NCBI GenBank assembly: GCA_951406725.2
Contig: OX597840.1
Span: forward strand, 38,750,001-38,814,000
Source of the DNA: Octopus vulgaris
Lineage: Eukaryota
Length of the DNA stretch: 64,000 bases
Direction: 5' to 3'
Positions 1,673 to 53,197 of the stretch are shown here, piece after piece. The translations under genes were made by a program, and so were the position numbers. The notes below the pieces were generated by a model. That model was given only the letters and a program-made list of their open reading frames with translations, ran no database searches and had not been told where the DNA came from. How positions within the stretch are numbered: position 1 is the first letter of the stretch; every line of letters begins with the position of its first letter.

Positions 1673-2251
1673 CAGGAAAAAGAAAAAGAAAAAAAGGCTA
1701 TTGATACTGCAGTTGCCCTCTCGTTGGCTGGCGTCGGTTTTAGTAAGAGATCCAAGATTCTTAAAAACGCCAATGTTCTTATGGGCATAGTGTTCCATCT
1801 GGCCACTCTTTTGGTAAAATACGCAGATATTTATGAGGAAGCTGTGTAGTTCAAATAAACTTCAGATAAGAGCGGATAAAATATTGCATGTGCTTCTTTC
1901 TTCATAACGCATATCCTTAGTTTAGCTGCAATAGTATAACAGTAAACAAACAAGTTTTGCTGGATTCGCTGAAAAGCCTCGGTGCCACGTTCATCTGTTC
2001 GGAAAGCATTATATTCTATTATATTGCAATGTTTAACAAAAGATCTGAAATTGTGAATTCTGGCAAATTCTACCAGAAACGTTTAACAAGCAATTACCAA
2101 CTAGCAACTGGCTAGCAGATATTATTTCATACATAATACATTTATTATACCCTGCAAAATAAAACCATATTTCGAAAACACTTATATAATCAATAACACT
2201 AATATTTAGGTGATACGATTAGTTGTGGCTGTGTGGTAAGTAGCTTCTTAC

Positions 2252-4451
2252 CAGACAGATGTGCTGTTTTTTGCTCCTGCAAATGTCACGTGTTTGAACG
2301 TGAAATGTTGAACTTTTGACTCGGTGACAGGTAAGACGTTCTGTATTTTTAGAAGCATAGTGAAGTTTATTGCTTGCTTAATGTTATTTAGCAGTTAACG
2401 TTATCTAGCATTAATATTTTTTTGCGGGTAATAGACTTCACTTTACTTCAGATATATTTCTCTGCCTGTTGTCGTGTCTAAGGTCTCACTCTTTAGTGAG
2501 AATTGTGCTTTTTGAGGAGGCGTAGCCCCTCCGCAAAAATTAATTTGTTTGCTTGTGTTTTACTACTTCGCAAGAAAATTATAAAAATAAGCCACTATTG
2601 GATTACCTTTCGGACCCATTTTTGTGGCGGTTGTGTTGCAGTTGCGGCGTTCCAGGTTCAACCCAGGCCGGGAGTACCGCAAGGCCAGAATATTTTTGCT
2701 GTGTTTTTTCTGTTTATTAACTTTCTTTTGAACTTCATTTACCCCCCCCCTTTTGTTTTTTTTCTTTATTGCGACTTTCCGTTAATTTCTTCCCTTCTGT
2801 TGTACTTTCTCCTTTTTGTTTTTTCAAAAATCTATCAAATTTTATTTAGACTTTTGAACTTTTTTCTTCCTGCTTTTGAGTTTAATTTGAATATATTTTT
2901 AAAAAAACATGGCAATGAAAAATAACAAAATTTTGGAGTGGGAAATCATACCACCCAAAAAGTGGTTAAAAGACCGTGAAGATAGGACGGTGGTGTTGAG
3001 AACCTACTCCAAGGCACATGACACCATCGCCCTATTCGAAAAGACGGCAATTGAGGAGGAGTTGGAAGAGTATTTGCCAACAATTAAATTCATTTCCAGG
3101 GGTGTCAAATATGCAACGGTGTGGTTGCTATTTGACACCCCTGAAGAGGCTTGCATATTTGCTAGCAAACCCTTGGAGGGTAAGGAAATCTTATTCCTGC
3201 CCACGTACAAAAAAAAGAAATTGATGAAAGCTTGGATCTGCGGACTGCCACCCGACATAGAACCCGAGTGGATAGAGGAGACTATCCGCCGGGGTCTGGG
3301 TGACAGCGAAACTAAGCTCCTCAATGTAAAAGTTCTTCCTGCGGCTGCTTGGGTTGGGTCGAAAGCAATTTTGACTCTGTGGACACAATCAGCCATTCTG
3401 GTTCTTCCAGATTTTTTGAAAATGGCCGGGTGCAGGTACCCGGTGATGCTTGAGGGTCGCCCCCCTAAGTGTCATCGGTGCTTGGAGTCCGGCCACATAA
3501 AGAAGAACTGTCCTCGGGAACAAAATAGGATCCCGGAACAGTTAAGTAAAACCCCTCTAGAAGAGGGAACGATAACGGCCGAGAAAGCAGAGGACTCCTC
3601 AAACAGAGGCCGAAAGAGGAAGGTGAGCAACAATGGGTGCTCACCAAAGGATAATAGGGATGAGGAGAGGAAGGCGAATCTTCCAGCCACGGAGGAGACG
3701 CACCCTCCCTCAGTTGAAAAGGGAAAAAAAAAGAAAAAGAGGAAGAAAAACGGGACATTACCGGCTGTCAGTGTAGCACCGGAATGTCGCGGAACTACGT
3801 CGGTTGGGGTTGTGCCACTGACAAGAGAAGGAATACCGTTGGCGGAAACTGTGCCGCCAACGAAAGAACTAAATGTGTTGGTCCTCTTCTATAGAGGAGG
3901 AGAAATTGAAAAAGTGATGGAAGAGCACTACAAGGGAGCACCTTTAGCCTTCACACAGGACCCCGAATGGCCTCCGCAGGTAGCTGTGGAGGCCGTGGCG
4001 TTCGACGTGACGCTAGGGCTAAAGGAGCTCAACGAAGATTATAACTTGGTCCCGGGCGACGCGAACTCGGAACTTGACTACGTTCTGAGGGAGGCGTGGT
4101 TGATGGTGGAGGGCGCGGGCACAAGCTATTTCGAGGACGATATGTATTATTAGTAATGGACTTAAGTCCCAAAATTGAAAAATTGTTAGAGGATTAATAC
4201 CTCGTTTTGTATTAATAATGGACTGCTAAGCCCAAAAATTGGGAAAAATTGTAAGAGGTTTTATACCTCGTTTTGTGTTTATCTTTTTAAAAAGAACAAT
4301 GTTTTAGAGAAGCAAAAGTCGGCGGGCGCTTTCTGTCTTCTCCCATCCTTATCATCTTTCTTTCATTATCATTCACTTCATTAATGTCCTCGTCCAGCCC
4401 GCAAAGCTAACTTAATCTGTGTACTGCCTTTATGGCAAATGTTTTGAAATA
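2252..4451 (+). mobile_element. ORF1-only (HAL1-like) non-autonomous non-LTR element, copy 1, inserted into the head of a type-B SINE
   Basis: Preceded by the SINE head GTGGCTGTGTGGT-AAGTAGCTTCTTAC (TSD 2238-2251). Followed by AAGTAGCTTGCTAAC (4452-4466) and the rest of the SINE. Highly similar to 50599-52785 from 2564 onward. One long ORF, no RT, ends ...GTTTTGAAATA. Confidence 0.9.
2909..4153 (+). CDS. 414-aa ORF1/Gag-like nucleic-acid-binding protein (putative RRM-like N-terminus, CCHC zinc knuckle, basic low-complexity linker, C-terminal WPPQVA domain)
   Basis: Intact ORF with C-x2-C-x4-H-x4-C motif CHRCLESGHIKKNC preceded by LPDFLKMAG..YPVMLEGRPPK, an arrangement typical of L1/Tx1-clade ORF1. 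Contains a KKKKKRKK basic stretch. Duplicated at 51292-52532. Confidence 0.85.
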   Translation: MAMKNNKILEWEIIPPKKWLKDREDRTVVLRTYSKAHDTIALFEKTAIEEELEEYLPTIKFISRGVKYATVWLLFDTPEEACIFASKPLEGKEILFLPTYKKKKLMKAWICGLPPDIEPEWIEETIRRGLGDSETKLLNVKVLPAAAWVGSKAILTLWTQSAILVLPDFLKMAGCRYPVMLEGRPPKCHRCLESGHIKKNCPREQNRIPEQLSKTPLEEGTITAEKAEDSSNRGRKRKVSNNGCSPKDNRDEERKANLPATEETHPPSVEKGKKKKKRKKNGTLPAVSVAPECRGTTSVGVVPLTREGIPLAETVPPTKELNVLVLFYRGGEIEKVMEEHYKGAPLAFTQDPEWPPQVAVEAVAFDVTLGLKELNEDYNLVPGDANSELDYVLREAWLMVEGAGTSYFEDDMYY

Positions 4452-4827
4452 AAGTAGCTTGCTAACCAACCACATGGTTCTGGGTTCAGTCCCACTGCGT
4501 GGCATCTTGTGCAAGTTGTCTTCTGCTATAGCTCCGGGCTGACCAATTCCTTGTGAGTGGATTTGGTAGACAGAAACTGAAAGAAGCCTGTCGTATATAT
4601 GTATATATGTGTATATATGTGTGTGTTTGTCCCCCCCCCCAATATCGCTTGTCAACCGATGCTGGTGTGTTTACGTCCCCGTTACTTAGCGGTTCGGCAA
4701 AGAGACCGATAGAATATGTACTAGGCTTACAAAGAATAAGTCCCGGGGTCGATTTGCTCGACTTAAGGCGGTGCTCCAGCATGGCCGCAGTCAAATGACT
4801 GAAACGAGGAAAAGAGTAAAAGAGTAA
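4452..4827 (+). mobile_element. Type-B SINE body (head at ~2221-2251, separated by the 2.2-kb insertion)
   Basis: Matches the intact copies at 44143-44597 and 45263-45662. Ends in an (AAAAGAGT)n tail. Confidence 0.9.
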
Positions 4828-5330
4828 AGGCGGTAAGCTGGCAGAAACGTTAGCACGACGGACGAACTGCTTACTGGTATTTCATCTATTTTTGTGTTCA
4901 GAGTTCAAATTCCAGCGAGGTCGACATTACCTTTTTTACTTTCTGATTCGATAAATTGCGTAGGTGGGGGTAGATCTAATTGAATGCCCCACCTCGCGCA
5001 GAAAAACTGAAAGAAGCCCGTTGTATTTACATTTGTGTGTGTGACTGTGTGTGTGTTCCCCCAACACTTGACAACCGATGTTGGTGTGTTTACGTTCCCG
5101 TAACTTAGAATATGTACTGGGCTTACAAAGAAAGTCCTGGGGTCGATTTGTTCGACAAAATGCGATGCTCCAACATGGCCACAGTCAAATGGCTGCAACA
5201 AGCAAAGGTTTCCGTTTACCAAATCCACTGACCAGCCTTTGGTCGGCGCGAGTCTATTGTAGAAGACGCTTGCCCAAGTTGGGACTGAACCCGGGAATAT
5301 GTGGTTGGGAAGCAAGATCTTACCATTCAG
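4828..5330. mobile_element. Cluster of SINE fragments (type A +, type B +, type B -)
   Basis: Recognisable SINE blocks at ~4828-4990, 5005-5200 and 5210-5325. Confidence 0.75.
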
Positions 5331-5425
5331 CTGTACATATTATTTAGAACTGTTTGATTTGGTTCCATGCTAATTAATATGTCAAGAAGAAGCCTGTCTC
5401 TTTCAGGCTACATATATATATATAT

Positions 5426-5648
5426 TTATTGCCCACAAGGGGCTAAACATAAAGGGGACAAACAAAGATAGACAAAGAGATTAAGTCGATTACATGGACC
5501 CCAGTGCGTAACTGGTACTTTATTTATCGACCCCGAAAGGATGGAAGGCAAAGTCGACCTCGGCGAAATTTGAACTCAGAACGTAACGGCAGACGAAATA
5601 CGGCTACGCATTTCGCCCGTCGCGCTAACGATTCTGCCAGCTCGCCGC
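5426..5648 (-). mobile_element. Type-A SINE monomer
   Basis: Reverse complement of 31001-31230. Confidence 0.9.
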
Positions 5649-5899
5649 GTTTCAAGCTACAGATCGCCGAATGGAGAGATACATGTTGTTCACAGTGGCT
5701 ACCATAAGATAAACTCCTATTGGTGAAGGAGGATCATGTGATGGTATCAGCGAATATCAGGTCTTTAGCGACAACAGTTCCTTTCTAAAGACTCTATTGC
5801 TGCTTCCTGTTCAGCCACGCGGTCAAAAAACAAAATCTTCTAAATGAACTGGTGTCGCTACGCATCTGATATTCTTTGGTAACACCATGTGACCCGTCA

Positions 5900-6510
5900 T
5901 TATTTCTTTAAATTAGCTATAAAGGCTTTACATAGATGGAAGCAAATGCGGGATGGACAACAACACAAATGAAATCAATGATGAGTAAATTAATGATGCT
6001 GATGAGGGAAACAGACGGCGCACGCCGATCGCTGCTTCCCGAAAACACTGTTCTTTTTTTCTCTTTTATAAAAACAAATTGAGGTTATAAACTACTTATT
6101 ACATAGTTCAATGGGACACAAAGTCCTTGCAAATGAGACACTAAGCCTCTTACATTTTTCCATGCTGGGCCCTATGCTCCTACAATACGAGGAAGTAAGC
6201 CTCTTGCTTTTTCCGCCCTGGCCGCACCAGACCAGGCTCAACGCGTCATTCAAGTATTTTTATTGTGCCCTGTCGGGGTGCTTCAACTGGGGGCGGAATG
6301 CGTCTTCGGGAACGGAGTTCATTTCCTTGAGCATATCCGTCCCTGACACGACCTTCGCAGCCACCTGCGGAGGCCATGCAGGGTCATCAATACAGGCTAG
6401 AAACCCTCCCCTCCGATCCTCTAGGGTAAACCTTTTCATAAATTCTTGAATTACCCCTCCCTCGTGGGAGAAGATTACAAATTCCTGCTTCACCCAGAGA
6501 GAGGCATAGT
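5900..6510 (-). mobile_element. Diverged, 5'-truncated relative of the ORF1-only element (ORF1 C-terminus plus 3' UTR)
   Basis: ORF 6260-6565(-) reads VIFSHEGGVIQEFM..LACIDDPAWPPQVAAKVV..MLKEMN, versus VLFYRGGEIEKVM..LAFTQDPEWPPQVAVEAV..GLKELN. Its downstream sequence aligns with the 3' UTR of copies 1 and 2 (AAAGAACA.TGTTTT, TCGGCG.GCGC, GTCCA.CCCGCA, GCCTTTAT.GC.AAT, GAAATAA). Confidence 0.8.
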
Positions 6511-6512
6511 TT

Positions 6513-7359
6513 GTGTCACGCATGTGCGAGCCCACAGAGTTAAAGAGACACTTACAATATTTCATTCACCGCATGCAGTTCTCAGGTTACAGCCATAAAG
6601 AAAGGATCAGAGTATACAAAGGAGCCATGAAGAAATTTGATACTATCTTATGTAATGATAGGAATGGGATTTGCCCACTCTATAGGAGCAAGTCATGGAA
6701 CACTATGGAAAGACAAAGAAAAAAATAGGGAAGGCCAACTCCTGGTATGATAGCCGTAAATACCAGAGTGTCATGTTCGTTGCCACCACCCCGGGAGGTG
6801 AACTGACGTACCGCTTTAGATGGACCCTAGACAAACTTAAGCTAAGAATTAATGTTGTTGAAAAGCCAGGCAACCCTATCAAATCTATAATTGGTAGAAC
6901 CTATCCTTTTAGTAGAACCCCCTGTACGGATAAGTACTGTACTGTTTGTAGATTTAACCCACAAACAAACTGTAAAGCCAGAAATGTAGTCTATAGTATA
7001 AGATGTATAGAGGGACGATGCAGTAACAAGACAACGGCATACGTAGGGGAAACGGCAAGAAGCATAGGAGGGCGGGTAAATGTGCATTGGAGACAACTCA
7101 AGGAAGGTAAAAGCTAATCGATTCTGTACCAACATGCCGAACAGGAACACGGGGGATCAATCAATAACATAGAAATTAAAATATTATCCACACATAGATC
7201 AGATGCAACAATTAGATAAATTACAGAAGCTACACACATAATAGAAAATAAACCTAGCCTGAATAGAAAACTAGAATGGAGCACTAACACAAACCACAAC
7301 ATATGACAATAGAGGATCCTGAAAACATAATAAATACTCAGATAAATAATAGAAATAAA

Positions 7360-7413
<54 letters not shown>

Positions 7414-7890
7414 AATATATTTTTTTTCGATTCGATTTATTATTATTATTATTACTAGTATTGTTGTTATACATACATACATACAAGCATATGTAATGAT
7501 AATAATAAGTGGATGTAAACACATGAACAAAATAAGAATAAACAAAAACAAAATACAAATTACATGAACATATATAAACAGAAGATACAAATATTATAGG
7601 CATCCCCACCCACACTAAATAAACATAAACGCACATAGAGATATAAGCATGTGCAAATGAAGACATACAATAGGAATACAAAATGGCTAACGGTTAGTAA
7701 GGAGAGACACAAATAAGAAAGAAGAAAACAAAGAACCACTGATGCGGTCACAGGAGTGTGACGAAAGAACTCTGGCCAAAATAAGATTAAGTTTAATGTA
7801 AAAAATAAATAACACTGAAGCAGAATAACAGCCCAAATATATAGTGCGTGTGTTTTTGGTTAAACTGGCAAAATGACCATTCCGAAATAT

Positions 7891-7895
<5 letters not shown>
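6513..7895 (+). mobile_element. Penelope-like retroelement, 5'-truncated and decayed: RT C-terminus, linker, GIY-YIG endonuclease, 3' UTR
   Basis: The translation includes LQYFIHRMQFSGYS, SVMFVATTPGGEL, a Cys-rich linker (C..KYCTVC..NCKARNVVY) and VVYSIRC...AYVGETARSIGGRVNVH (GIY-YIG). Frameshift near 6725 and stop at 7115-7117. Hammerhead-like motif at 7736. Ends in (TA)n. Confidence 0.85.
7736..7775 (+). ncRNA. Minimal type-I hammerhead-like motif (variant core CUGAUGC)
   Basis: CCA-CTGATGC-G-GTCAC(aggagt)GTGAC-GAAA-gaac-TC-TGG. Stems I and II pair, and the motif lies in the 3' region of a Penelope-like element. Confidence 0.6.
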
Positions 7896-7964
<69 letters not shown>

Positions 7965-8331
7965 GAAGTTGTCTGTGTATGGCAGGTTTCGTAGCCTTCA
8001 ACTAACACTATCTCCTCCGAAACCCTGCCGCGCAAGTTGACCAAAATTGAGAGTATGATAGAAGTCTTGCTCTTCCTTCCGTAGAAGATAAAATGTAAAT
8101 CGGACCATGTTAACACCAAAACTTATTCACATAAAAAAGGTGCTTTTCTATGAAAATCCCTATTTTTTACGATTTTTTGACTAGTGTGTCACCATTTTTC
8201 GGTGTATTTCACTCAGAAAAAATGTCTCCTTAAAGAGAATAACAAGCTATATAATACAAAAGTTTTACTTTTCAAAAATTCCAATTCTAAAGGGTTAAAA
8301 CAAACCCGAGCAATGCCGGGCGTTATTGCTA

Positions 8332-8403
<72 letters not shown>

Positions 8404-9214
8404 GTGTATGTTTACCTTGTTAACAATTAACACGGAAAAAATAAATAAGTAATTAAATATAGTTTGCATTGTTTATACCATTTATTCTTTTGAATAGTAT
8501 CAGTGGAATTTTCGAAACATGTGTCGAAAGTAAAAATATTTGATTTACATATATATATATATGTATGTATATATATATATATGTATGTATATATGTATGT
8601 ATGTATGTATGAATGTATGTATGTATCTAAGTATAAATTTGTGTATTTGTGTGAGTATTAGTTGTTATCTTTGTCTACATCTAAGTAATCTAACAGTTCG
8701 TCAAAGAGGCTGCTTGTTCCACAACAATTACCAGACTTTAAAGAATAACGAATATAGTGAGGTCAATTTGTCCGACTCTCTCTCCACCGTTTTATCACAT
8801 CATGGCCATTCTCAAATGATTGGAATAAATATGAGATAAAAGATATTAAATGTTTACACAACTTAAAACTAAATAGATTGAAAATACGTTTTATTGCAAA
8901 TAACGAAGAATAGCTGAGTATGTGACTTGCTTTCCATCATTTTATTTCAGACCCAAATTAACTGTCGTTGCATTGTTCATCGATTATAGACGTATGTAGT
9001 TTCGATTGTGTTTATAAACTGCCCCAATGCTACCATTTACAAATCGTTAGAACACTCAGAATTTTAAAACATAAATCGCAGACCAAGATAAATCTTCAGC
9101 TCATAAAACGAAAAAAAAAAAAGAAACGTTTGGATTAAAGCATTTTTTATATGTAACTGATCTCCCGTATTAAATTTTATGTTAGAGATTATAAATTCTC
9201 TTCCAAACGTGACA

Positions 9215-9490
9215 CTCCGTCGGTTACGACGACCAGAGTTCCAGTTGATCGGATCAACCGAATAGCCTGCTCGTGAAATTAACGTGTATGTGGCTGAGAA
9301 CTCCACAGACACGTGTGCTCTTAAGGTGCTGCTCAGGAAGATTCAGCGTGACACAGATTGTGTGACAACGCTGGTCCCTTTGAAATACACTTGCAACATA
9401 AACAAGAAGAAAGAGTGAGAAAAAGATGTGGTGAAAAAGTACAGAAGGATTTGCCAACGCCCACTGCCAGATCCTCGTGGAGATTGAGGT
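9215..9490 (-). mobile_element. Type-C-related SINE fragment
   Basis: Reverse complement of the 41810-41985 body (TGTCACGCTGAATCTTCCTGAG...TTAATTTCACGAGCA). Confidence 0.75.
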
Positions 9491-11089
9491 GTTTTATATC
9501 CCTATTATTTAAGATTTGTTCCTCATGCCGTTACGTACAATATCCGGGTATTTTGCTGAATAAAAGAGTTATGGAGAAGTAAACTAACCAGCAATGATTC
9601 TTAGTGAAGGTTTTGTGAAACACACACACAGAAAACACATATACACATACTCTCACGCATACACAGAGATAGAGAGACACATAGACACACGCACACAAAC
9701 ACACACACACACAAACACACACACACACGTACAATATTTATAGATTTTTTAACCTGGTACTTCTTTGATTGGGTTCCGATAATGCTACAGTATTGAAGAC
9801 GCATCGACACAAGTTCGCAAGTGGTGATTGAGAGAAAAGTACCTCAAACAAAATTACTCATACACACGCACACATACAGGTAATTACCAGCTGCGTACTG
9901 GAGATGATGTAATCGACTGGTCCCCTTCCCCAAAATTTCCGGCCTTGTGCCTAGATTAGAATATAGAAAGCCACTTTATTTCACTTTACTCAAGTTCAGT
10001 CTACGGTAGAAATAAATTGCGACGTCACTGGTGCCCTTGGCTTTCAATTGGATATTATCATTGGGTGGTATGCATGGGTGACTGCTGATCTTCAATAAAA
10101 GCAAGCTTACACGGACCTGTGCGTCGAAGGGCAATGTTCAAAGTGCAGTCCCATGGTCATTCATTCATGACTGAAGGGGCTCTTTACACTTTAACCATTT
10201 ACATACACACCAATTTAATCTATCTATTTATCTATCTAACTACCTATCTATCTGTCTGTCTATTTGTCTCTCTGTCGATATGTATGTCTATCTGTCTCTC
10301 TGTCTCTCTGTCTCTCTGTCAGTCTCTCTCTATATATATATAGATAGATAGACAGATAGATAGATAGAGAGAGAGAGATAGATACATACATACATACATA
10401 TACGTATTACATATATATGTACATATATTCGTATATACATATATGCATACATATATACATACATGCAGAAATATATATATATATATTAAATGAAATAGAG
10501 AAATACCATATATATGGCTGGATTTATGTATGTATGTATATTAAACAGCAATAGCAGAGAAATATTATAAACTGCATATCCATGCATATACGCATGCATA
10601 CAAATATAAATGCATGTATTGTAAAAGAGAAGGTAAGGGAATGCATGTACGTGTGTGTGAGAGAGAGAGAGAGAGAGAGGGTGAGAAATCAAACATATAC
10701 GTAATATTATGGAACGAATTCTTCACCGTCACTGAGATATAACGAGAAAGGAATAATATTGATCTTATTAGAAAAAAATATATGCCACCACACCCCACCT
10801 CACACTCTTATGCTGAAAACGAAAACAAAAGTCTAAGACATAGAGGAAAAAAGAAAACACTATATTCAAAATATAGAATATGATTATGAACTGCAATGAA
10901 TCAATCAAACGTTCGAAAGAAAAGGAGAAACAAAAGAGAAAGGAAAAAAGAAATGAAAAGAAAAGACCTTGCTTGATATTACTGAAATTACTCGGACGGA
11001 ATATTGTAGCGAAAAAGGAATAGAAAAAAAGAAACGGTAGCGAAATATTGCAAAAGCAAGCAAATGAAGAAATTGTGTTGATATTATTT

Positions 11090-11510
11090 GGAAGAAGAAG
11101 AAGATGATGAATGAAGAAGAAGAAAAAGAAGAATACGATGACGACGAAGAAGAAGATGAAGAAAACGAAGAAGAAGAAGATGAAAAAAACGATGAAGAAG
11201 TGGAAGAAAACATGGAAGAAGTAGAAGTGAAAAGAAGAAGAAGAAGAAGAAGAAGAAAAAGAAGAAGAGGAAGAAAAAGAAGAAGAGGAAGAAAAAGAAG
11301 AAGAAGAAGAAGAAGAAGAAGAAAAAGAAGAAGAAGAGAAAAAGAAGAAGTAAAAAAGGAAGAAGGAGAAGAGAAGAAGAAAAAGAAGAAGAGAAGAAGA
11401 AGGAGGAGAAGAAGGAGAAGAAAACAACAACAACAACAAACAACAACAGCAACAACAAGAAAAAGAACAAGAAGAACAACAACCAGAAGAACAAAAAGAA
11501 GAACCAACTG
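11090..11510. repeat. Degenerate (GAA)n polypurine tract
   Basis: Read directly from the sequence. Confidence 0.95.
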
Positions 11511-12083
11511 AAGGCAAGATACTATTCAGATGAAGGAATAAGAAAAATGAAGAAGCCGAAGAAAGAAATATCGGCCAAGATGATTGAAATAAATCATTTT
11601 CACTTCTTAATTTCTTCCACTTTCAATTCGAAATAGTTGTTGTTAAGAGGAAAATTAAAATGGCTGTTATGAAAGTTATATGTCATATATTTCCTCTTGG
11701 CAAAAACATTCGATTAAATGAGAAAAAATAAAGGGAGAAGCAAATTGTGGATAAGAAAATGAAAGAAAATGCTAAAAAGGGGGGAAAAAACCGTGTAGGA
11801 ATCCTACCTAACACTAAAAGATCAGAAAAATATTAATAGTTCAGTTCAGCAAAACAATTTATTTACTTCATCCGCATCAACTTGTTCGGTTTATCAGTTA
11901 CGCTGTGTTCTATTGCATCTTTTTTTTTTAATTTTCTTTTCTTAGTATATCCCTTTCTTCTGTACTTCTTCTAACGATCAGGGATAATTATACATTTTCG
12001 GGCATTCATATATACCTACACATAACATACACGAAAAACTGAAGTCAATATACATATATGTGTGAGTGTGTGTGTCTGTGTGT

Positions 12084-12119
<36 letters not shown>

Positions 12120-12719
12120 TCGCGCGTGTGTGTGTTCAATTCCTGACGCAAAGGCACCGTGCTTGGCCCCGCATAAATGGCATGGCATGCACGAAGAAAT
12201 TTTACGCCGAATTCTTACATAGCACACAGCTCGACTTTCAAATCAAATTTCTATCTCCTACCATGTAAAAAATAATATACACGCGGCATATGGTGTCGCT
12301 GTGTGATGAGAAGCTTGCTTCCCTACCACATGGTTCCGGGTTCCGTTCCACTCCGTGACCAAGGCCTTATGAGTAGATTTGGTAGGCGGAAATTGAAAGA
12401 AGCTGGCTAACCAAAACCGTATGTAGTTTTATGCTGCACAATTTTATAGCGCTACGCGATCAGGTCACAAGCATAATACATCCTACATAGTTAGGAAACG
12501 AAGGTACAGCAACCACAGACTCACAGAAAGTAAAAAACATTAGAGATTAAAATGTGTAATGACTCATCATTCCATGTACCAATTACCAAGATAACAACTG
12601 TTATAAACCCAAATTGAAATATCAAAGTTTGAAAGGGTTTAATGAACTTATAATGGATGGAAAGTTTTACGATATCGGGAGAATATCGCCTTCTTTCATT
12701 ATCTCTTTTTGTTCTCTCG

Positions 12720-13145
12720 TGTAGATCAAGTTCCGTCAGGCGAAGAGAGAAGACTTCAAGTACAAATGAAATTTACAACTGGTTTTATTTACAAGTTTCA
12801 CAAGATAGGTGAAGTGTGCTACACTCAGCAACCATCTTTAGCTGTGTGCGTTATGTAGTAGCTTCGTTAGTGCGGGCACATTGCCTCTGGAGGTACAACA
12901 TATAGACAGGCGCAGCATTTGAAGTGCGCTCAGCAAGTGCTGCTGCTCAGAGGCGGAAGGAAGTGGCGGTAAAAGAGGAAGTATCTCAATCTGTTTTGGT
13001 CTTATGTACAGTTTGCCATCGCGAGCCTCGTTGTGATCCCGCGTATGGCAAATGGATGCAGATGAGGTCTGGCTCCAATCTCGGAGATGGCAATGGCTGC
13101 CGCGAGAACTCATCCAATATGGCGCTGACTGCTTGTGCCACTACA
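12720..13145 (-). mobile_element. Possible solo LTR
   Basis: GC-richer 426-bp block bounded by TGTAG...CTACA inverted termini, with AATAAA on the minus strand near 12785. No TSD recognised. Confidence 0.4.
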
Positions 13146-14151
13146 AACTAAAACTGCAGTAATCTACAATACAAACAAATATTGTTAAATTATATGCAAA
13201 ATCAAACTTCAACGTAACAACAGTTTTATGCAGCGAGTTTCTTCAATCTCGACTAACTAAAAACTAACACTGGACACGTTGTGCCGTAAATAGAACAGAA
13301 CTCTGCGCAGTCGCACCGCAGGTAAATAACAGCAATGGAGACAATCAAAGTCACGTTATCAAAACTAAAATCACACCAGAAAAAAAGTGTAAACAATTTG
13401 AAGGATGGCTGCGTAGGCCGTTCTGGATAAGCGACCAAGAAGTGATGCTTGCTCTGCAGGAGACATTTGTTCTTAGGTTTGGAGAATTGTTCTCTGTTGT
13501 GCTCTCTGCACAGTGTCAAACTATTAACGGAGAATATGAAGCGATACAACATTTTTGCACAAAGCTAATTGCCTGTGTGCATTAAATGAATTCCTAGAAT
13601 AGGTTGATAAAACTAGATTTTATACTTCGAGATGGAGACACAGATTTATTTAGCAATCTGTATGTGGGAAATTTTTGAAGGGTTGGAAACTAACTTTGGC
13701 ATCAATACTTAAGCAAATACCATTTTAGACACCACAGCATAGTAAAAAAAGAAGACATAGGTATTGCAATTACGTGGCATTTAAATGCCTACTTCTATTC
13801 AGTGCACTCCCAAAATAATTAAGAAACCTAGACAATGTGGTTAATCATGTCTTGAAAAAAAATTATACATTCTGCTCTCTACTATATCAGAATAACCGAC
13901 GTTCCAGGAAGAGGTCCAGCCAAAGGCAGCGGTGTCAGATTCTCTCCTGAACCAGAAAAGCCAAGAACCAGGATATCCCACCAACCAAAACAAATCAACC
14001 AGATAAGTGGTGTGTGGAAAGCTTACAGAGTTGCTTTCGTAGTCAAGCATGAACTCCAGCAAGTCCTCGTGGCTTAAAATGTTTTAAAGAAATGAATGCA
14101 AAAATCAATCACTTTAATACTGATACATATATTTATAAATTACATATGTGT

Positions 14152-14223
<72 letters not shown>

Positions 14224-14836
14224 ACATATATAAATGTTTGTCCCTTGGTACAAGCATTTGCAAGGAACCGTGGAAAATACTTTATAACGTTGTACGCAAA
14301 AGAAACCTCGCGCTGGAAACACTAGTTGAAACGATGCAATTTTTTACTAAAATCCCAGACACAACTCGAAGAATAACCATGGGAGATTTGCTATTCGCAA
14401 AATACAAACAGTTCTCCAATAAGCAAATATATAAAAACTGAAAAAAGAAAATAAAGAAAAAAAACATCATATCAGGAAATCAACCAGAAGTTAACATTGT
14501 GTGATTTTCAATTTGGTGTTGACGATATATTGAGTTTTGTGTTTGCATCTTATTGAAAACGTCATGTAAGAACCAATAGCGTCATTAGTTTGTTTGAAAG
14601 ATAGGACAGTGAAGATCTCGAAGTGTAAATAGAATTAAGTATTTAACAAAGCTATTATTCCAGTATAAACAGAAACGGGCGGCCAGGAATAATGAAGTGT
14701 ACTTGGCCAAAAACAAACTACAGCATAGTAATGTTTTCAGTGTAGCATATGCCGAAGACAAACAGCTTCGTATTTCCTGCGCGCCTGTAAACACATACAC
14801 TCCTATACATATGTAGCTATGTATGTGAGAGTGTAA

Positions 14837-14899
<63 letters not shown>

Positions 14900-14964
14900 G
14901 AGAGAGAGGGAGAGAGATGAAACTTACTTAGAAATGGATGCGTGGCTTTCCGTCATATAATAAC

Positions 14965-15214
14965 AGAATAATAAATACAATATATGCATATATACATACA
15001 TATATGTACGTACCTACCTCTACATGTATATCTACATGCATATATGGGTACAGGACACCAAAAAACGTCGAACACAATGAGAAACGAAAACATAAACACA
15101 AAACCAAGGAAATGGACATTTTTCTTAAACAATGAAAAAATAAAGTACAAGACATACAACAAAAGGAAAATTCCCCTTCTTCAGCCGCCTCTGTTCCATC
15201 TACTCCGCGTTTCG

Positions 15215-15220
<6 letters not shown>
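14965..15220. repeat. (TA)n-associated interspersed repeat family Y
   Basis: The block GTACGTACCTACCTCTACATG...ACGTCGAACACAATGAGAAACGAAAAC...GGACATTTTTCTTAAAC recurs at 16080-16320, 53815-54115 and, inverted, at 59288-59445. Confidence 0.85.
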
Positions 15221-15261
<41 letters not shown>

Positions 15262-16046
15262 TTCTCTTTAACTTACGGCCTATGCAACTTACAACTCTAT
15301 GCACTTAAGACAAAAGAAAATAAGGAAATATATAAAATACAAATAAAAATAATGGTTTTCAAACTTTGGGCGGTTGCAGGTAGGATAACTATGGCAGCAT
15401 CTGGCAATGCAGGCCTTCCTCAGACCCATAGAACCTACTGCTTGCCACTGTCTCTCACTCTCTCGCTTTCCGCCATTAGTTATGTTTGAACTCAAATAGC
15501 GTTTAAAAATATAAATGCGACATACGACTAAATCGACTTGCGACCAGCCAGTCGTCGGAAGGGTACTCGGTCGTAAGTCGAGGAGAATATATACCTTGAG
15601 CGGTTAGATGAGTGACTACTGATGTACGAGTAAGTGCTCCACGTAGATTATCATTTTCCAGTCAGGTTGCAGAATAGGAATTAGTTGAAATGTGTACGTA
15701 GCAACGAATCTAGTTATGATGTACGTTTCCGCTTTTGTGTTGGTGTGTATATGCATGGCCCAGTTTACAAATAAATCTTTAACGGCTCGTAATGTAATAT
15801 ATGTATGTGTGTGTTTGCGTGTGTGTGAGTGTGAGTGTGTAGGTATGTATGCATGTGAATGTAAGTATGTATGTACGTGTGCATGTATGTATGTGCGTAT
15901 GTAAGTGCGTATCTTAAAGATTACAGGTAATCCACACACTCCCCCCATCGTGTCTTCCCATTGTTATAGGAAGATTACAAATGTTGAGATATTTGGTAAA
16001 TCTAGAAGAAGCGAAAAGTGGAGTATAAACGTAGAGTAGATCCGGA

Positions 16047-16079
<33 letters not shown>

Positions 16080-16082
<3 letters not shown>

Positions 16083-16320
16083 AATTAATAAATAAATAAA
16101 ACATATGCATATATATACATACATATATGTACGTACCTACATCTATATGTATATATACACGCATATATGGGTAAAGGACACAAAAAAAAAACGTCGAACA
16201 CAATGAGAAACGAAAACAAAAACACAAAACCAAGGAAATGGACATTTTTCTTAAACAACGAAAAAATAGAGTACAGGGCATACAAAAAACAGGAAAATTC
16301 CTCTTCTTCAGTCGCCTATC
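16080..16320. repeat. Repeat family Y copy
   Basis: Matches 14965-15220 and starts directly after (TA)n. Confidence 0.85.
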
Positions 16321-16504
16321 TTGGAGCTAACACATTTTGGTTGGCACCCAAAGTTAGACATCAAAGATTGTGATGTAAAATTTTGTTACGATCCACGAAG
16401 TAAAGACAAAGAAGAGAACATAGAAAACAACTGACGGACATAATTGTAGTACACTCAAACACACATGGATACACACACACACACACACACACATACACAC
16501 ACAC

Positions 16505-16560
<56 letters not shown>

Positions 16561-16565
<5 letters not shown>

Positions 16566-16770
16566 ATCCAAACAAGAAAGCACAAAAAACACAACAATGC
16601 GAGGATGTGGAACAAATATAGTATTATTGGACACTCAGGAAAGAAGGAAAGAAGGAGGGTTTAACGTTTCGAGCGGAGCTCTTCGTCCGAAACATAGGAA
16701 AAGGAAAGATCCAGAGAAGGGAAGACAGAGGTAAAAAATCGCCAACGGTACACACGCGGTCACATTTTGA
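16561..16770 (-). mobile_element. (TA)n-associated short repeat family X with minimal hammerhead-like motif (16659-16693)
   Basis: Reverse-complement match to 28745-28952 and 56910-57067. Motif GTTT-CGGACGA-A-GAGC(tcc)GCTC-GAAAC-GTTA-AAC. Confidence 0.7.
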
Positions 16771-16869
16771 ATGTGCATTTTGAATATATATATATTTATT
16801 TAAGGTTCATTTGAATTAATTACTTGAACTGAGGAACCTTGCCAGTTCAGTTTTGTCCACACAGCTTTA

Positions 16870-17085
16870 CTTCTATCCTTCAGAAAATCATTCACCCATT
16901 TCGCCGACTATGCCGAGATCACGCAGTTTGTGACATATTATTCCGTGATGGACTTTACCGAAAACCATTGCAAAATCGAGAAATATCACATCCACATTTG
17001 AGTGTTTGAGCAGCTGTTTCAACACCCAGTCATACTGTTCTAAGACCTGAGTCAGTCAGCTTCTTCCTGATCGGAAACCATTTAT
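16870..17085 (-). mobile_element. CR1/L2-like LINE RT fragment
   Basis: Minus strand reads GFRSGRS...YDWVLKQLLKHSNVDVIFLDFAMVFGKVHHGIICHKLRDLGIVG, resembling the GFR.GRS / VDVIYLDF.KAFDKV.H motifs of LINE RTs. Confidence 0.75.
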
Positions 17086-17435
17086 ATATATAAATGTGTA
17101 TACCTGTGACTAATTATGTTTTCAAACATTGCTATTTATCTGGGTTAATTTTTTTCTCTCTCTTTAAATTCTACGATGAATGACAAAGTAGATAAAATGT
17201 ATGAAGCTATGTTCGTGTCAATTATTTACGTTTCAGAATAGAAAGAATGGAAGAAACCAAAATTTAGATGTTTTCTTATTTAGACATTCAAATATTAATA
17301 ATTAAGCATTTGTACATCCTACTAGAAACATTCTCAATAGCAGTACATCCGCATAGAGAGATATTTATATGCGTGAACATATGTATATGTGTGAATATAT
17401 GCGTGTGTACGTATACGTATATACGAGTGTGTATG

Positions 17436-17968
<533 letters not shown>

Positions 17969-18065
17969 TTTCACATACATATGTATATATAAATATATAT
18001 TTCTGTATATATATATCAAATATACAGTTGCACACAGATATACATACAAAAGCGCGCGCATGTAC

Positions 18066-18096
<31 letters not shown>

Positions 18097-18114
18097 TGTA
18101 TGTATGTATGTATG

Positions 18115-18168
<54 letters not shown>

Positions 18169-18302
18169 TGTGATTCTATGTGTAGGTATATATATATATA
18201 TATAAATCGATAAATATATATATATGTGTGTGTGTATGTATGTATGAATTACACACACACAAACACAAAATCGCACATACACACAGACACACTCACACAC
18301 AT

Positions 18303-18376
<74 letters not shown>

Positions 18377-18518
18377 AGTACACACACATGGATAAGCAGG
18401 CAATGCATAGATCCATTGAACACATGTATGTATGTCTGCGTGTTTGTTAATGTGTGTGAGCGTGTATAACAAGCATACTCAAAGCTTCTGTGCATATACA
18501 CAGGATCTAATATATATG

Positions 18519-18573
<55 letters not shown>

Positions 18574-18894
18574 GTTTAAACACACATACATACATACAAA
18601 CTTATAGATATGCAAACGTTACTATAAATTTCTCGTATCTGTGTTTCAAAGTACAAAAGTACACATGGTTATACGTGCAAGGAAGTGTTTTTCAAGCAGG
18701 AATAGGGTGAAATTTAAAGTTACTCCGTTGAACAAGAATAAAAGAGAAAATGTAATAAAGAATCTAAGAAATTCTGACTTTATTCGACATCTTATGAGTT
18801 GAATAATTAATAAGCAACAACTAGTAAAATTGAAAGGGACAAAAAACCGCTGAAAATGCATCACTATTTGATAGAAATTTATAAAAGTACAAAC

Positions 18895-18927
<33 letters not shown>

Positions 18928-18944
18928 CTTAGTGTAAAGTGAGA

Positions 18945-18985
<41 letters not shown>

Positions 18986-19083
18986 ATGTAATTTTTAAGT
19001 ATGCATATATTTGTGTGTAAGTATAAACATATGTGTATACATTCGAGCAGAGTAGAGTGAGGTATTTGGGGTGACGTATTTAG

Positions 19084-19125
<42 letters not shown>

Positions 19126-19310
19126 CAGACATACAGACAGACAGAGAGGGGGAGAGAGAGAGAGATGTAACGGAAACGATGCAGAAAATAAGAAGTCGGT
19201 TACTAGTTTCGATGTGGTAGTATTCCTTACTAATAGTGTATATCGAAATCTATGTATGTCTATCTACGTGTATTACTCCCTATCTGTCTGTTACACACAC
19301 ACACACACAC

Positions 19311-19350
<40 letters not shown>

Positions 19351-19561: not shown

Positions 19562-19617
<56 letters not shown>

Positions 19618-19674
19618 GTATGTATGTGTATATATATATATGTATATATGTATGTATATGTATATGTATATATG

Positions 19675-49570: not shown

Positions 49571-50598
49571 TATTGTGGTCGTTCTTGTCGTTACGTCATA
49601 GCGCTCCATGCTATTCCTTTTCTTTCCACGTAGAATTTTTCCCATTTTTCCTAAATGGTGTTTGGTTTTATTATTTATTAATTTTTCTAATTACCAATAT
49701 TTCTCAAATTCCTTGAGGTAGCATTTGTAATGTCTTTTTTTTATTTTTGATATTTTCTCATTTTTCCTGCCAAAACTAAGTTTGAATTCATTGCTGCTTT
49801 TTAATCAAGAGATACATGTATATCATTAGTTCTCTATTTAAAGGTCGTTCGACTTTGATGTGACTAAAATCTGATCAAAGTCATTTTAAAACTGTCACCG
49901 CCAGGACTCTTTTCCAGGTAAATGTGTACAGAATTACATTTACAAAGAATTTTCTTTCTAAAATCACGCATTCAAGTGATTGACTGGACTATCGGATTTT
50001 GTTATGCATCGCTGGTTACAGTACTCTTTGCATACTTTCAGCTTTCAAAAGATCTTCCTTGCTGGCTAGGCCGGCGGGTCAACATTCTCTCTGATGAGAA
50101 TGGTAACCTGTCACTGGGTTACCCATTTGCAGTTGAAGTAACTTGACCAACACGAAATGAAGTGTTTTTGTAAGTAGCACAACGTTCCGCCGGGCTGGAA
50201 ATCGAAACAGCGATCTCCCGATCAGGGATGATTCAATTGCTATTTCTCACAAAGCGATCAGCAATTTAGTCACCGTCGTCAACGGGTACCTCGCCTTCAA
50301 ACATTGGTTGATTAACTCACTGATTCACTGTCTCAGTAATTGATTGACGTGTTTACCCCAGACACATTTCTAGCCAAAATGTGCTACACCTTTAAACCTT
50401 GTAATTTGTGTTGCTGAGCGCAGAGATTCGAAACAACATATCTAGGATTACATCAATGCATCTGCTGCTTTGAAAGACGATAAGGAGAAACTTAACGGAA
50501 TGCTGACGTTTATTATTAGAAGATCAATGCACCAATCATACGCTAAATAAATTTCTAGTAAGGAGCAGGAGTGGCTGTGTGGTAAGTAGCTTGCTAAC

Positions 50599-52785
50599 AC
50601 ACATGCGCAGTTAGTCAGTTGCTTCCTGTTAAGCCAGAGTGGACGCGAGTCAACCAGCTCCGTCCAATTAAAGAAAAAAGATCAAAAACGGAAAGTTGTC
50701 GAGGTAAGTGATTTTGTTTATTGTGAGTTGGGCATAATTTATTGCGTGCCAATTATTATTTCAGTAAGTTGTGTCCAACTCTGAGACAATTTCGCCTGCT
50801 CTCGGCGGCTGCCGTTTTTGTGTTTATTGAAAAAAAAAAACAGTGGAGGGGCGTATCCTCGGAATTCAATACAGTTACTGTTAAAATTACCGTTGGCGGT
50901 AGCCAGAGCTATGTTTGGGTTTGTTGAACTTATTCTCTTGTCAGAGTACTTCGCAAGAAAATTATAAAAATAAGCCACTATTGGATTACCTTTCGGACCC
51001 ATTTTTGTGGAGGTTGTGTTGCAGTTGCGGCGTTCCAGGTTCAACCCAGGCCGGGAGTACCGCAAGGCCAGAATATTTTTGCTGTGTTTTTTCTGTTTAT
51101 TAACTTTCTTTTGAACTTCATTTAACTCCCCCTTTTGTTTTTTTTTCTTTATTGCGACTTTCGGTTGATTTCTTCCCTACTGTTGTGCTTTCTCCTTTTT
51201 GTTTTTTCAAAAATCTATCAAATTTTATTTGGACTTTTGAACTTTTTTCTTCTTGCTTTTTGAGTTTAATTTGAATATATTTTAAAAAAACATGGCAATG
51301 AAAAATAACAAAATTTTGGAATGGGAGATCATACCGCCTAAAAAGTGGTTAAAAGACCGTGAAGATAGGACGGTGGTGTTGAGAACCTACTCCAAGGCAC
51401 TCGACACCATCACCCTATTCGAAAAGACGGCAATTGAAAAAGAGTTGGAAGAGTATTTGCCAACAATTAAATTCATTTCCAGGGGTGTCAAATATGCAAC
51501 GGTGTGGTTGCTATTTGACACCCCTGAAGAGGCTTGCAAATTTGCTAGCAAACCCCTGGAGGGTAAGGAAATCTTATTCCTGCCCACGTACAAAAAAAGA
51601 AATTGATGAAAGCTTGGATTTGCGGGCTGCCACCCGACATAGAACCCGAGTGGATAGAGGAGACTATCCGCCGGGGTCTGGGTGGCAGCGAAACTAAGCT
51701 CCTTAATGTAAAAGTTCTTCCTGCGGCTGCTTGGGTTGGGTCAAAATCAATTTTGACCCTGTGGACCCAATCAGCCAATCTGGTTCTTCCAGATTTTTTG
51801 AAAATGGCCGGGTGCAGGTACCCGGTGATGCTTGAGGTTCGCCCCCCTAAGTGTCATCGGTGCTTGGAGCCCAGCCACATAAAGAAGAACTGTCCTCGGG
51901 AACAAAATAGGATCCCGGAACAGTTAAGTAAAACCCCTCTAGAAGAGGGAACGATAACGGCCGAGAAAGCAGAGGACTCCTCAAACAGAGGCCGAAAGAG
52001 GAAGGTGAGCAACAATGGGTGCTCACCAAAGGATAATAGGGATGAGGAGAGGAAGGCGAATCTTCCAGCCACGGAGGAGACGCACCCTCCCTCAGTTGAA
52101 AAGGGAAAAAAAAAGAAAAAGAGGAAGAGAAACGGGACATTACCGGCTGTCAGTGTAGCACCGGAATGTCCCGGAACAACGTCGGTTGGGGTTGTGCCAC
52201 CGACAAGAGAAGGGATACCATTGGCGGGAACTGTGCCGCCAACGAAAGAACTGAACGTATTGGTCCTCTTCTATAGAGAAGGAGAAATTGAAAAAAAAAT
52301 GATGGAAGAGCACTACAAGGGAGCACCTTTAGCCTTCACACAGGACCCCGAATGGCCTCCGCAGGTAGCTGTGGAGGCCGTGGCGTTCGGCGTGACGCTT
52401 GGGCTAAAGGAGCTCAATGAAGATTATAGCTTGGTCCCGGGCGACGCGAACTCGGAACTTGATTACGTTCTGAGGGAGGCGTGGTTGATGGTGGAGGGCG
52501 CGGGCACAAGCTATTTCGAGGACGATATGTAATTATTGAACTGTTAGTATTTATAATGGACTGCTAAGTCCAAAAATTGAAAAATTGTAAGAGGCTTAAT
52601 ACCTCGTTTTGTGTTTATCTTTAAAAAGAACAATGTTTTAGAGAAGCGAAAGTCGGCGGGCGCTTTTTGTCTTCTCCCATCCTTATCATCTGTCTTTCCT
52701 TAACATTCACTTCATTAATGTCCTCGTCCAGCCCGCAAAGCTAACTTAATCTGTGTACTGCCTTTATGGCAAATGTTTTGAAATA
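50599..52785 (+). mobile_element. ORF1-only (HAL1-like) non-autonomous non-LTR element, copy 2, inserted at the same SINE position
   Basis: Perfect 15-bp TSD AAGTAGCTTGCTAAC at 50584-50598 and 52786-52800. SINE head at 50561-50598 and SINE remainder at 52786-53197. Same 3' end as copy 1. Confidence 0.92.
51292..52532 (+). pseudogene. Second copy of the ORF1-like gene, split by a 1-bp deletion in an A-run
   Basis: ORFs 51292-51606 and 51603-52532 together match the 414-aa protein. The A8 run in copy 1 (TACAAAAAAAAG) is A7 here (51592-51598). The knuckle reads CHRCLEPSHIKKNC. The frameshift could be a homopolymer sequencing error. Confidence 0.8.
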
Positions 52786-53197
52786 AAGTAGCTTGCTAAC
52801 CAACCACATGGTTCCGGGTTCAGTCCCACTGCGTGGCATCTTGGGCAAGTGTCTTCTGCTATAGCCCCGGGCCGACCAATGCCTTGTGAGTGGATTTGGT
52901 AGACGGAACTGAAAGAAGCCTGTCGTATATATGTATATATATATATATATCTGTGTGTGTGTGTGTATGTGTGTGTGTTTGTGTGTCTGTGTTTATCCCC
53001 CTAGCATTGCTTGACAACCGATGCTGGTGTGTTTACGTCCCCGTCACTTAGCGGTTCGGCAAAAGAGACCGATGGAATAAGAACTGGGCTTACAAAGAAT
53101 AAGTCCCGGGGTCGATTTGCTCGACTTAAGGCGGTGCTCCAGCATGGCCGCAGTCAAATGACTGAAACAAACAAAAGAGTAAAAGAGTATAAAAGAG
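52786..53197 (+). mobile_element. Type-B SINE body (head at 50561-50598)
   Basis: Continues exactly from the TSD. Confidence 0.9.

What the first reader, a model, noticed from the sequence alone, without database searches (positions are those of the whole stretch)
5900..6510. Diverged third family member suggests the ORF1-only architecture is old, with a conserved C-terminal domain and 3' RNA signal
Seen: the minus-strand peptide shares the GG.I...M / LA...DP.WPPQVA...V / LKE.N pattern with the C-terminus of the 414-aa protein despite heavy divergence. About 360 nt after its stop it ends in GAAATAA through a 3' UTR that aligns block-wise with copies 1 and 2, so no ORF2 lies between ORF1 and the 3' end here either. 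Its 3' flank (TGACGGGTCACATGG) is not the SINE target. Inference: a long-lived lineage of ORF1-only elements under protein-level selection, with subfamilies of different or relaxed target preference. The conserved 3' blocks are probably the recognition signal for the partner RT.
Basis: partly seen in the sequence, partly recalled or inferred. Interest (0 to 1): 0.78.

Follow-up and report, generated by a model that had tools for sequence, protein, structure and literature searches.

The report
ORF1-only parasite of SINE-targeting LINE
This is a broken old copy of an octopus jumping gene that makes only an RNA-binding protein, most likely borrows its copying enzyme from a complete relative, and, like that relative, inserts at one fixed spot inside a very common short repeat whose sequence changes it has followed over time.

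Summary
The fragment at 5900-6511 (-) is real: a decayed, 5'-cut copy of an old subfamily (about 9% from its consensus) of an ORF1-only retroposon. No ORF2 followed the C-terminal domain in any of 79 locus records. I found the likely partner: a young, intact 5.45-kb L1/Tx1-group LINE with the same last ~38 nt and the same insertion site, in the head of an abundant tRNA-type SINE.

- The target is not relaxed. 20 of 24 relatives sit at that SINE site (15 strict matches); the window flank is an exception. Old subfamilies use the older SINE variant, young ones the newer (100 of 100 listed).
- The C-terminal domain is among the fastest-changing parts (22-32% identity between distant subfamilies, against 59-69% N-terminal).
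- The stop is premature.
- Only the terminal hairpin and tail are shared with the partner. The upstream blocks form a predicted hairpin/pseudoknot, also present in a second ORF1-only lineage.

ORF1 is under purifying selection (dN/dS 0.10-0.24; dS 1.3-1.9 between distant subfamilies). It works like HAL1/HeT-A. A sequence-specific, SINE-targeting version was not found in nine literature searches; Repbase was not searchable.

The parts
5900..6511 (-). Copy 3: 5'-cut, decayed copy of an old ORF1-only subfamily (lineage 1, cluster 7), 8.9% from its subfamily consensus
6205..6511 (-). Coding remnant of the ORF1 C-terminal domain (F..GG.I ... WPPQVA motif); nonsense codon at 6262-6260; true ORF end near 6205 (inferred from relatives)
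6006..6040 (-). 3' UTR hairpin H1; its loop (6025-6020) is the 5' strand of the predicted pseudoknot
5948..5953 (-). 3' strand of the predicted pseudoknot (only 4 of 6 pairs left in this decayed copy)
5900..5937 (-). Terminal segment shared with the autonomous partner: 4-bp hairpin with 5-nt loop (5927-5915) and GAAATAA tail; likely RT-recognition signal
5639..5895 (.). 3' flank of copy 3: palindromic repeat of another family (arms 5731-5784 and 5842-5895); the arm next to copy 3 is cut short, so the junction is secondary or off-target
6512..7900 (+). 5'-truncated Penelope-like element (end of RT region, GIY-YIG frame 6686-7117), 95-96% identical to its relatives and so younger than copy 3; abuts the cut 5' end of copy 3
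2247..4452 (+). Copy 1: full-length young ORF1-only element (subfamily A), intact ORF1 2909-4153, 9-nt target duplication at 2238-2246 and 4452-4460 inside a SINE head
50594..52786 (+). Copy 2: full-length subfamily A element, frameshift near 51600, same target site
4452..4835 (+). Remainder of the target SINE behind copy 1 (its head lies in front of copy 1, about 2222-2246)

Best explanation
Copy 3 is a dead fragment of an old subfamily of a non-autonomous, ORF1-only retroposon family (about 1.8-2.25 kb) derived long ago from an L1/Tx1-group LINE. Shown: ORF1 only; a co-resident intact 5.45-kb LINE with endonuclease, RT and zf-RVT; the same last ~38 nt; the same insertion point (GTGGT^AAG[T/A]AGCTTG) in the head of an abundant tRNA-type SINE; a 9-10-nt target duplication; purifying selection on ORF1; old subfamilies in the old SINE variant and young ones in the new. 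Inferred: the element is transcribed from its own 5' end and makes its own ORF1p. It recruits the partner's ORF2p in trans through the terminal hairpin and tail. The partner's endonuclease nicks the SINE head, a few bases of the RNA 3' end pair with the primer, and a target-like 5' hexamer carried by the element helps second-strand joining. Target choice therefore belongs to the partner and has shifted with the SINE's sequence. The upstream hairpin/pseudoknot and the lineage-specific C-terminal domain most likely serve RNP assembly or competition for ORF2p (weakly supported). The odd flanks of copy 3 are later damage or a rare off-target event.
For: Architecture: 74 of 79 locus records with the C-terminal domain have the family 3' UTR within 900 nt, and 0 of 79 have an ORF2 start downstream (at least 5 places were fetched twice). 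Partner: found at the same site by a pattern search. 7 of 8 young copies chosen by endonuclease sequence have both ends at the site; one has both ORFs intact; Pfam Exo_endo_phos, RVT_1, zf-RVT. Its ORF1 is 30% identical to the window ORF1 over residues 14-207, E 2e-22. The terminal profile scores 12-28 bits on 5 of 5 autonomous tails against a shuffle maximum of 6.4. The outer pair of the terminal hairpin is UA 25, GC 12, AU 8, GU 2, unpaired 3 of 50. Specificity: 204 of 221 subfamily A ends are followed by the exact site; 12 of the other 17 were fetched and all 12 begin with a mutated version of it. Age tracking: SINE variants are 12.6%, 6.3% and 3.2% from consensus; subfamily 3 is 8.7%, subfamily A 0.8%. 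Subfamily 3 has 15 strict old-variant flanks and 0 new-variant of 24; subfamily A has 100 new-variant of the 100 listed, while 16 of the first 100 empty sites are old-variant (hand count). Selection: N-terminal dN/dS 0.10-0.24.
Against: Trans-mobilisation is inferred, not assayed; no expression evidence was obtained. Lineage 1 ORF1 sits on a long branch away from every autonomous ORF1 sampled, so its parent was not found and an unsampled autonomous lineage cannot be excluded (genome searches score only 40-150 of up to 11,972 candidates). The age trend has exceptions: 4 of 30 lineage 1 copies in a 60-site sample lie in the old variant, one of them 94% identical to subfamily A. 4 of 24 subfamily 3 copies have non-SINE flanks, one a true off-target insertion with a 16-nt duplication. 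The pseudoknot pairs are mostly invariant, so covariation inside lineage 1 is slight (2 of 6 pairs, one sequence each). Tx1-clade membership was not tested against a named reference.
Confidence: 0.85

Rival explanations
1. Subfamily 3 had a different or relaxed target.
For: The window copy and 3 other copies of 24 have non-SINE flanks; one is a true off-target insertion. The preferred SINE variant does differ between old and young subfamilies.
Against: 15 of 24 match the SINE site strictly and 5 more partly; 6 of 6 genome-wide matches to the tail type of copy 3 are followed by the old-variant site (the pattern itself required a site). The window junction lacks the AG that normally follows the tail, cuts one arm of a palindromic repeat, and has lost its 5' partner to a younger element.
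Confidence: 0.07
2. The ORF1-only copies are just internal deletions or truncations of an RT-encoding element with the same ORF1, not a lineage of their own.
For: ORF1 is homologous to the partner's and the 3' end is shared; genome searches were capped.
Against: Only 25-31% ORF1 identity to all autonomous copies sampled; 27 lineage 1 rows form one clade, 100/100; several young subfamilies with intact frames differ by dS 1.3-1.9 with dN/dS 0.10-0.24; own C-terminal domain and own upstream UTR; 30 lineage 1 against 10 autonomous in 60 sampled sites.
Confidence: 0.05
3. The shift of SINE variant with age reflects only which SINE copies existed or were open at the time, not a change in endonuclease preference (a rival on this one sub-claim only).
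For: The old variant is the most diverged, so new variants did not yet exist for old subfamilies; young SINEs may be more accessible; a few younger copies do sit in the old variant.
Against: Intact old-variant sites are still 16 of the first 100 exact empty sites, yet 0 of 100 listed subfamily A ends use them. The element-borne 5' hexamer also changes with the variant.
Confidence: 0.35

Closest known systems
HAL1 (half-L1) of mammals
   Same: Non-autonomous L1-group derivative encoding only ORF1p, with several origins (PMC5753468, passages; PMC5786205, passages).
   Different: This family inserts at one sequence, ends in a structured hairpin tail rather than poly(A), and has an ORF1 only 30% identical to its partner's, with a CCHC knuckle and its own C-terminal domain. 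That HAL1 is not sequence-specific is recalled; the HAL1 paper was not held.
HeT-A with TART/TAHRE (Drosophila)
   Same: ORF1-only element more abundant than its RT donor, one shared target, head-to-tail arrays, many co-active subfamilies, purifying selection on Gag (PMC5537684, passages). Arrays of 2-3 different subfamilies are seen here too.
   Different: HeT-A is Jockey-clade, adds to chromosome ends and serves the host. This one is L1/Tx1-group and inserts inside a dispersed SINE; no host role was seen.
Target-specific Tx1-clade LINEs (Tx1 into Tx1D, Keno, Kibi/Koshi, Tx1-Mar with SINEU)
   Same: LINEs that insert at a fixed place in another repeat or transposon and carry non-autonomous passengers to the same place (PMC4494074, passages and section 15).
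   Different: In the parts read, targets are DNA transposons, LTR elements, snRNA/5S genes, satellites and microsatellites, not a SINE head, and the passengers are non-coding SINEs, not ORF1-coding elements.
Ag-Sponge (CR1-derived ORF1-only element)
   Same: ORF1-present non-autonomous LINE (named in PMC5786205).
   Different: CR1 clade; nothing further was read about it.

Membership tests
ORF1-present non-autonomous LINE (HAL1/HeT-A/Ag-Sponge kind) | Encodes ORF1 only, no ORF2 between ORF1 and the 3' end | tested here: met
   0 of 79 locus records; copies of 1.8-2.25 kb bounded by target duplications
ORF1-present non-autonomous LINE (HAL1/HeT-A/Ag-Sponge kind) | ORF1 homologous to that of an autonomous LINE | tested here: met
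   30% over residues 14-207, E 2e-22
ORF1-present non-autonomous LINE (HAL1/HeT-A/Ag-Sponge kind) | 3' end shared with an autonomous partner | tested here: met
   terminal profile hits 5 of 5 autonomous tails above shuffles
ORF1-present non-autonomous LINE (HAL1/HeT-A/Ag-Sponge kind) | Multiplies as a unit with hallmarks of target-primed reverse transcription | tested here: met
   9-10-nt duplications, 5'-truncated copies, at least 221 subfamily A ends
ORF1-present non-autonomous LINE (HAL1/HeT-A/Ag-Sponge kind) | Moved in trans by the partner's ORF2p | not testable with these tools
   inferred from shared tail and shared site
HAL1 proper | Derived from mammalian L1 | tested here: not met
   only named homologues of ORF1 are two Octopus sinensis proteins; parent is a local LINE clan
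L1/Tx1 group (partner LINE) | Two ORFs; ORF2 with APE endonuclease, RT and C-terminal zinc motif; closer to L1 than to R2 | tested here: met
   Pfam PF03372, PF00078, PF13966; human L1 ORF2p E 8e-67 against R2 E 6e-20
Tx1 clade (partner LINE) | RT groups with named Tx1 elements in a tree | not testable with these tools
   no named Tx1 sequence was returned; the label rests on target specificity and recalled features
Tx1 clade (partner LINE) | Sequence-specific insertion into a repeat | tested here: met
   7 of 8 young copies have both ends at the site
RRM/ferredoxin-like fold (C-terminal domain) | Structural match to a known fold | tested here: inconclusive
   model pLDDT 84.7; Foldseek no E<=0.001; best VIA Z 5.0, rmsd 3.5-3.6, 72-81 aligned

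The most novel reading that the evidence does not exclude
A three-level parasite chain in continuing co-evolution. A SINE is cut between its promoter boxes by a dedicated LINE, changes its target bases over time, and the LINE endonuclease follows. That LINE is exploited by one very old ORF1-only lineage whose own fast-changing C-terminal domain and 3' pseudoknot are a dedicated device for capturing the partner's ORF2p, with both ORF1-only lineages sharing a single origin (not rejected, AU p 0.42).
Probability: 0.22. Interest if true: 0.78.

Novelty: new variant of a known kind. Interest (0 to 1): 0.55.

Why it matters
Why ORF1-only retroposons keep their protein under selection, and how they overcome the partner's preference for its own RNA, is open; the review read offers only 'likely multimerize'. 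Here an intact partner, intact young ORF1-only subfamilies with very different C-terminal domains, a 38-nt shared tail, a separable upstream RNA structure and a single defined target site all occur in one genome, so each part can be tested by itself. The age series of SINE variants also gives a fossil record of a retrotransposon endonuclease changing its target preference. The window fragment by itself is ordinary debris.

Tried and rejected
Homologues of the C-terminal domain outside the family: none in Pfam or the protein atlas. The profile search of 1.84 billion representatives gave one hit, a 7-fold repeat protein that I reject as summed weak matches. No similarity to the partner's own C-terminal domain (profile-profile probability 0.2%; no HMM hit). 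No known fold stood out. The partner's domain was not modelled, so a shared fold remains open. ORF1 homologues in other species: only two Octopus sinensis proteins, so the taxonomic range and absolute age are unknown. Expression: no RNA holder listed on record; laying contigs of 4 runs showed presence only. Rfam: 8 weak matches, none near threshold; no tRNA gene called in the window, so 'tRNA-type SINE' rests on recalled A/B-box motifs and on PMC8967140 passages on octopus tRNA SINEs. The missing 5' part of copy 3 was not found in 6400-20000. An HDV-like ribozyme fold was considered and rejected on topology (by eye). The idea that 3' tails are refreshed from the contemporary partner was tested and not supported. 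My pseudoknot scan found none in 5 of 5 autonomous UTRs, found it in only 2 of 6 lineage 2 UTRs, and missed it in copy 3; a weaker one in the partner is not excluded. The Fisher test printed used hand-entered counts and is not relied on. Earlier notes on this genome or sequence: none. Literature: nine searches showed no description of this family; subscription journals, Repbase and Dfam were not searchable, and supplements were not read.

Full report
Observation. The minus-strand peptide at 6478-6299 matches residues 324-385 of the 414-aa ORF1 at 39% (E 2.6e-5), and 6058-5900 matches the 3' UTR of copy 1 at 71% over 165 columns (E 1.7e-13). Neither score was reached in 2000 and 1000 shuffles. 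The stop at 6262-6260 is a later nonsense change: 4 of the 5 closest relatives scored read through it. Homology stops at about 6511, where a Penelope-like element begins that is 95-96% identical to its relatives and so younger. The 3' flank is a palindromic repeat of another family with one arm cut at the junction. The genome is G000, 2.8 Gb; octopus is inferred from the only named ORF1 homologues.

The subfamily. A genome search with the fragment had 275 candidates, of which 40 were scored; the closest are 82-89% identical. Several reach the ORF1 start, with 62-68% identity to the window ORF1 in the N-terminal part; one is bounded by both junctions at 1.82 kb. Of 79 locus records with the C-terminal domain (three searches; at least 5 places fetched twice), 74 have the family UTR within 900 nt and none has an ORF2 start downstream. 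The 24 clustered copies of subfamily 3 lie a median 8.7% from their consensus, against 0.8% for 21 copies of subfamily A (copies 1 and 2).

Target. Of those 24, 15 match the SINE site strictly, 5 partly, and 4 (including the window copy) do not. One of the 4 is a true off-target insertion with a 16-nt duplication. For subfamily A, 204 of 221 tails are followed by the exact site; 12 of the remaining 17 were fetched and all begin with a mutated site. The site exists in three SINE variants, 12.6%, 6.3% and 3.2% from consensus. Subfamily 3 uses the oldest (15 strict, 0 newer). Subfamily A uses the newer ones in 100 of 100 listed ends, although 16 of the first 100 of 61,591 exact empty sites are the old variant. 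A tail pattern typical of subfamily 3 gave 17 old-variant and 8 new-variant ends; all 8 belonged to other subfamilies or to the partner. Exceptions exist: 4 of 30 lineage 1 copies in a 60-site sample are in the old variant. The true duplication is 9-10 nt. The next bases at the 5' junction follow the element type, not the local target: they differ from the target in 12 of 25 scored copies.

Partner. A search for other tails at the filled site (91 matches, 30 fetched) gave two ORF2 ends. The full element is 5.45 kb with endonuclease, RT and zf-RVT, is very young (many identical endonuclease domains), and 7 of 8 copies chosen by endonuclease have both ends at the site; one has both ORFs intact. 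Older autonomous copies lie in older SINE variants. ORF2 is closer to human L1 than to R2 and 64% identical to an Argonauta protein in the RT region. Tx1 is my label from target specificity and recalled features, not a tested placement. In the first 60 of 695 filled-site matches, 30 were lineage 1, 10 autonomous, 1 lineage 2 and 19 unassigned, at least 8 of these being mutated empty SINEs.

Age and selection. Four intact ORF1s from young subfamilies give N-terminal dN/dS 0.10-0.24, with dS 1.3-1.9 in the five distant pairs. The C-terminal domain has 22-32% identity in those pairs (linker 31-41%, N-terminal part 59-69%) and dN/dS 0.24-0.83 over all six pairs (dS is near saturation, so the ratios are rough). 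In a tree of 38 rows (119 segments reduced at 90% identity, plus one O. sinensis protein) the 27 lineage 1 rows form one clade, 100/100, about 1.7 changes per column from all autonomous rows (midpoint root only). A second ORF1-only lineage of 1.35-1.75 kb sits at the same site in the old variant; its ORF1 is 36% identical to the partner's and 27% to lineage 1. One common origin of both lineages is not rejected (AU p 0.42, 19 rows). So the architecture is old relative to the subfamilies and SINE variants; no date in years follows.

C-terminal domain. About 90 residues with near-invariant G and WP.Q; model pLDDT 84.7, mixed beta/alpha; no clear structural match; no sequence relative outside the family and none in the partner's own C-terminal domain. 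The N-terminal half resembles clusters with ZCCHC3-type RNA-binding domains and a CCHC knuckle (a lead only).

3' RNA. In 50 of the 91 collected ends (redundant, damaged and two lineage 2 ends left out), the terminal 4-bp hairpin has an outer pair UA 25, GC 12, AU 8, GU 2, unpaired 3; 0 of 500 shuffles reached the covariation score, with the tool's caveat on relatedness. A profile of this end hits 5 of 5 autonomous and 6 of 6 lineage 2 tails. A profile of the upstream blocks hits none convincingly (best 3.4 bits against a shuffle maximum of 3.2). The upstream blocks form a long hairpin whose arms pair better within than across the 14 clusters (-11.7 against -8.7 kcal/mol; clusters are related). 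Its loop can pair with a 6-mer about 56 nt from the end (91% of cells paired, little covariation). Lineage 2 has the same layout at nearly the same distances with a different 8-bp pairing (87.5% paired). That repetition is the best evidence for the pseudoknot; it remains a prediction.

Mechanism. Shown: anatomy, shared tail, shared site, selection, age tracking. Inferred: trans use of the partner's ORF2p through the terminal hairpin, nicking by its endonuclease, microhomology at both junctions. Speculative: the role of the pseudoknot and the C-terminal domain in competing for ORF2p.

Known systems. ORF1-only LINE derivatives are known from the L1, Jockey and CR1 clades (PMC5786205 and PMC5753468, passages). 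HeT-A shares a target with its RT donor and has many subfamilies (PMC5537684, passages). Tx1 elements target other repeats and carry SINEU with them (PMC4494074, passages and section 15). 3' stem-loops are typical of stringent LINEs (PMC3747384, passages). L1-Tx1 LINEs and tRNA SINEs are listed for octopus only as classes (PMC8967140, passages). PMC11203168 (passages) added nothing. Nine searches showed no report of this family or of an ORF1-only element targeted to a SINE; Repbase, Dfam, subscription journals and supplements were not seen and may hold it. Unchecked notes of this scan list ORF1-only elements in fungi and mammals, which makes the architecture itself unremarkable.

Verdict. Real feature; new variant of a known kind; interest 0.55. 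The value lies in the whole system, not in this fragment.

Noticed in passing
window 5414-5650 (-), 1113-1690, 21889-22277, 39000-39780: A second SINE family, often in tandem units, ends in a tail resembling the partner LINE's (shared pyrimidine-rich block and a 4-bp hairpin with 5-nt loop). It may be moved by a related LINE with another target. My terminal profile did not score it.
   Followed up: partly
L093-L096 (G000 C2, C3): Second ORF1-only lineage, 1.35-1.75 kb, at the same SINE site, with its own C-terminal region and the same predicted pseudoknot layout.
   Followed up: partly
L101-L103, L107, L147, L156: Head-to-tail arrays of two or three different subfamilies, or of an ORF1-only element in front of an autonomous one, because each insertion recreates the target.
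   Followed up: partly
5' ends of L031, L009, L015, L104, L105, L110, L158, L160; window about 2325-2335: Lineage 1 5' UTRs share a block with a splice-donor-like CAGGTAAG (motif recalled). Subfamily A uses several different 5' ends, one also seen on subfamily C. L158 and L160 share 5' sequence with lineage 1, suggesting 5'-end exchange; L158 may itself be a chimera.
   Followed up: partly
L149, L151, L153, L018, L074: Further LINE families of the same clan (ORF2 50-65% identical) with related tails but other flanks; L149 and L153 share one flank motif, so possibly another fixed target.
   Followed up: no
L144 and relatives, ORF1 residues about 377-452: The autonomous ORF1 has its own ~75-aa C-terminal domain, conserved across older autonomous copies and faintly in L149, not matched by Pfam in scans that did not isolate it.
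   Followed up: partly
window 5639-5895; L192-L202: Family of old palindromic repeats (up to 416 bp in L198; paired arms about 1 kb apart in L194/L199), probably a DNA-transposon derivative.
   Followed up: partly
window 6512-7900; L264-L268: Abundant Penelope-like family (2141 candidates, 95-96% identical), one copy with a 695-codon open frame.
   Followed up: no
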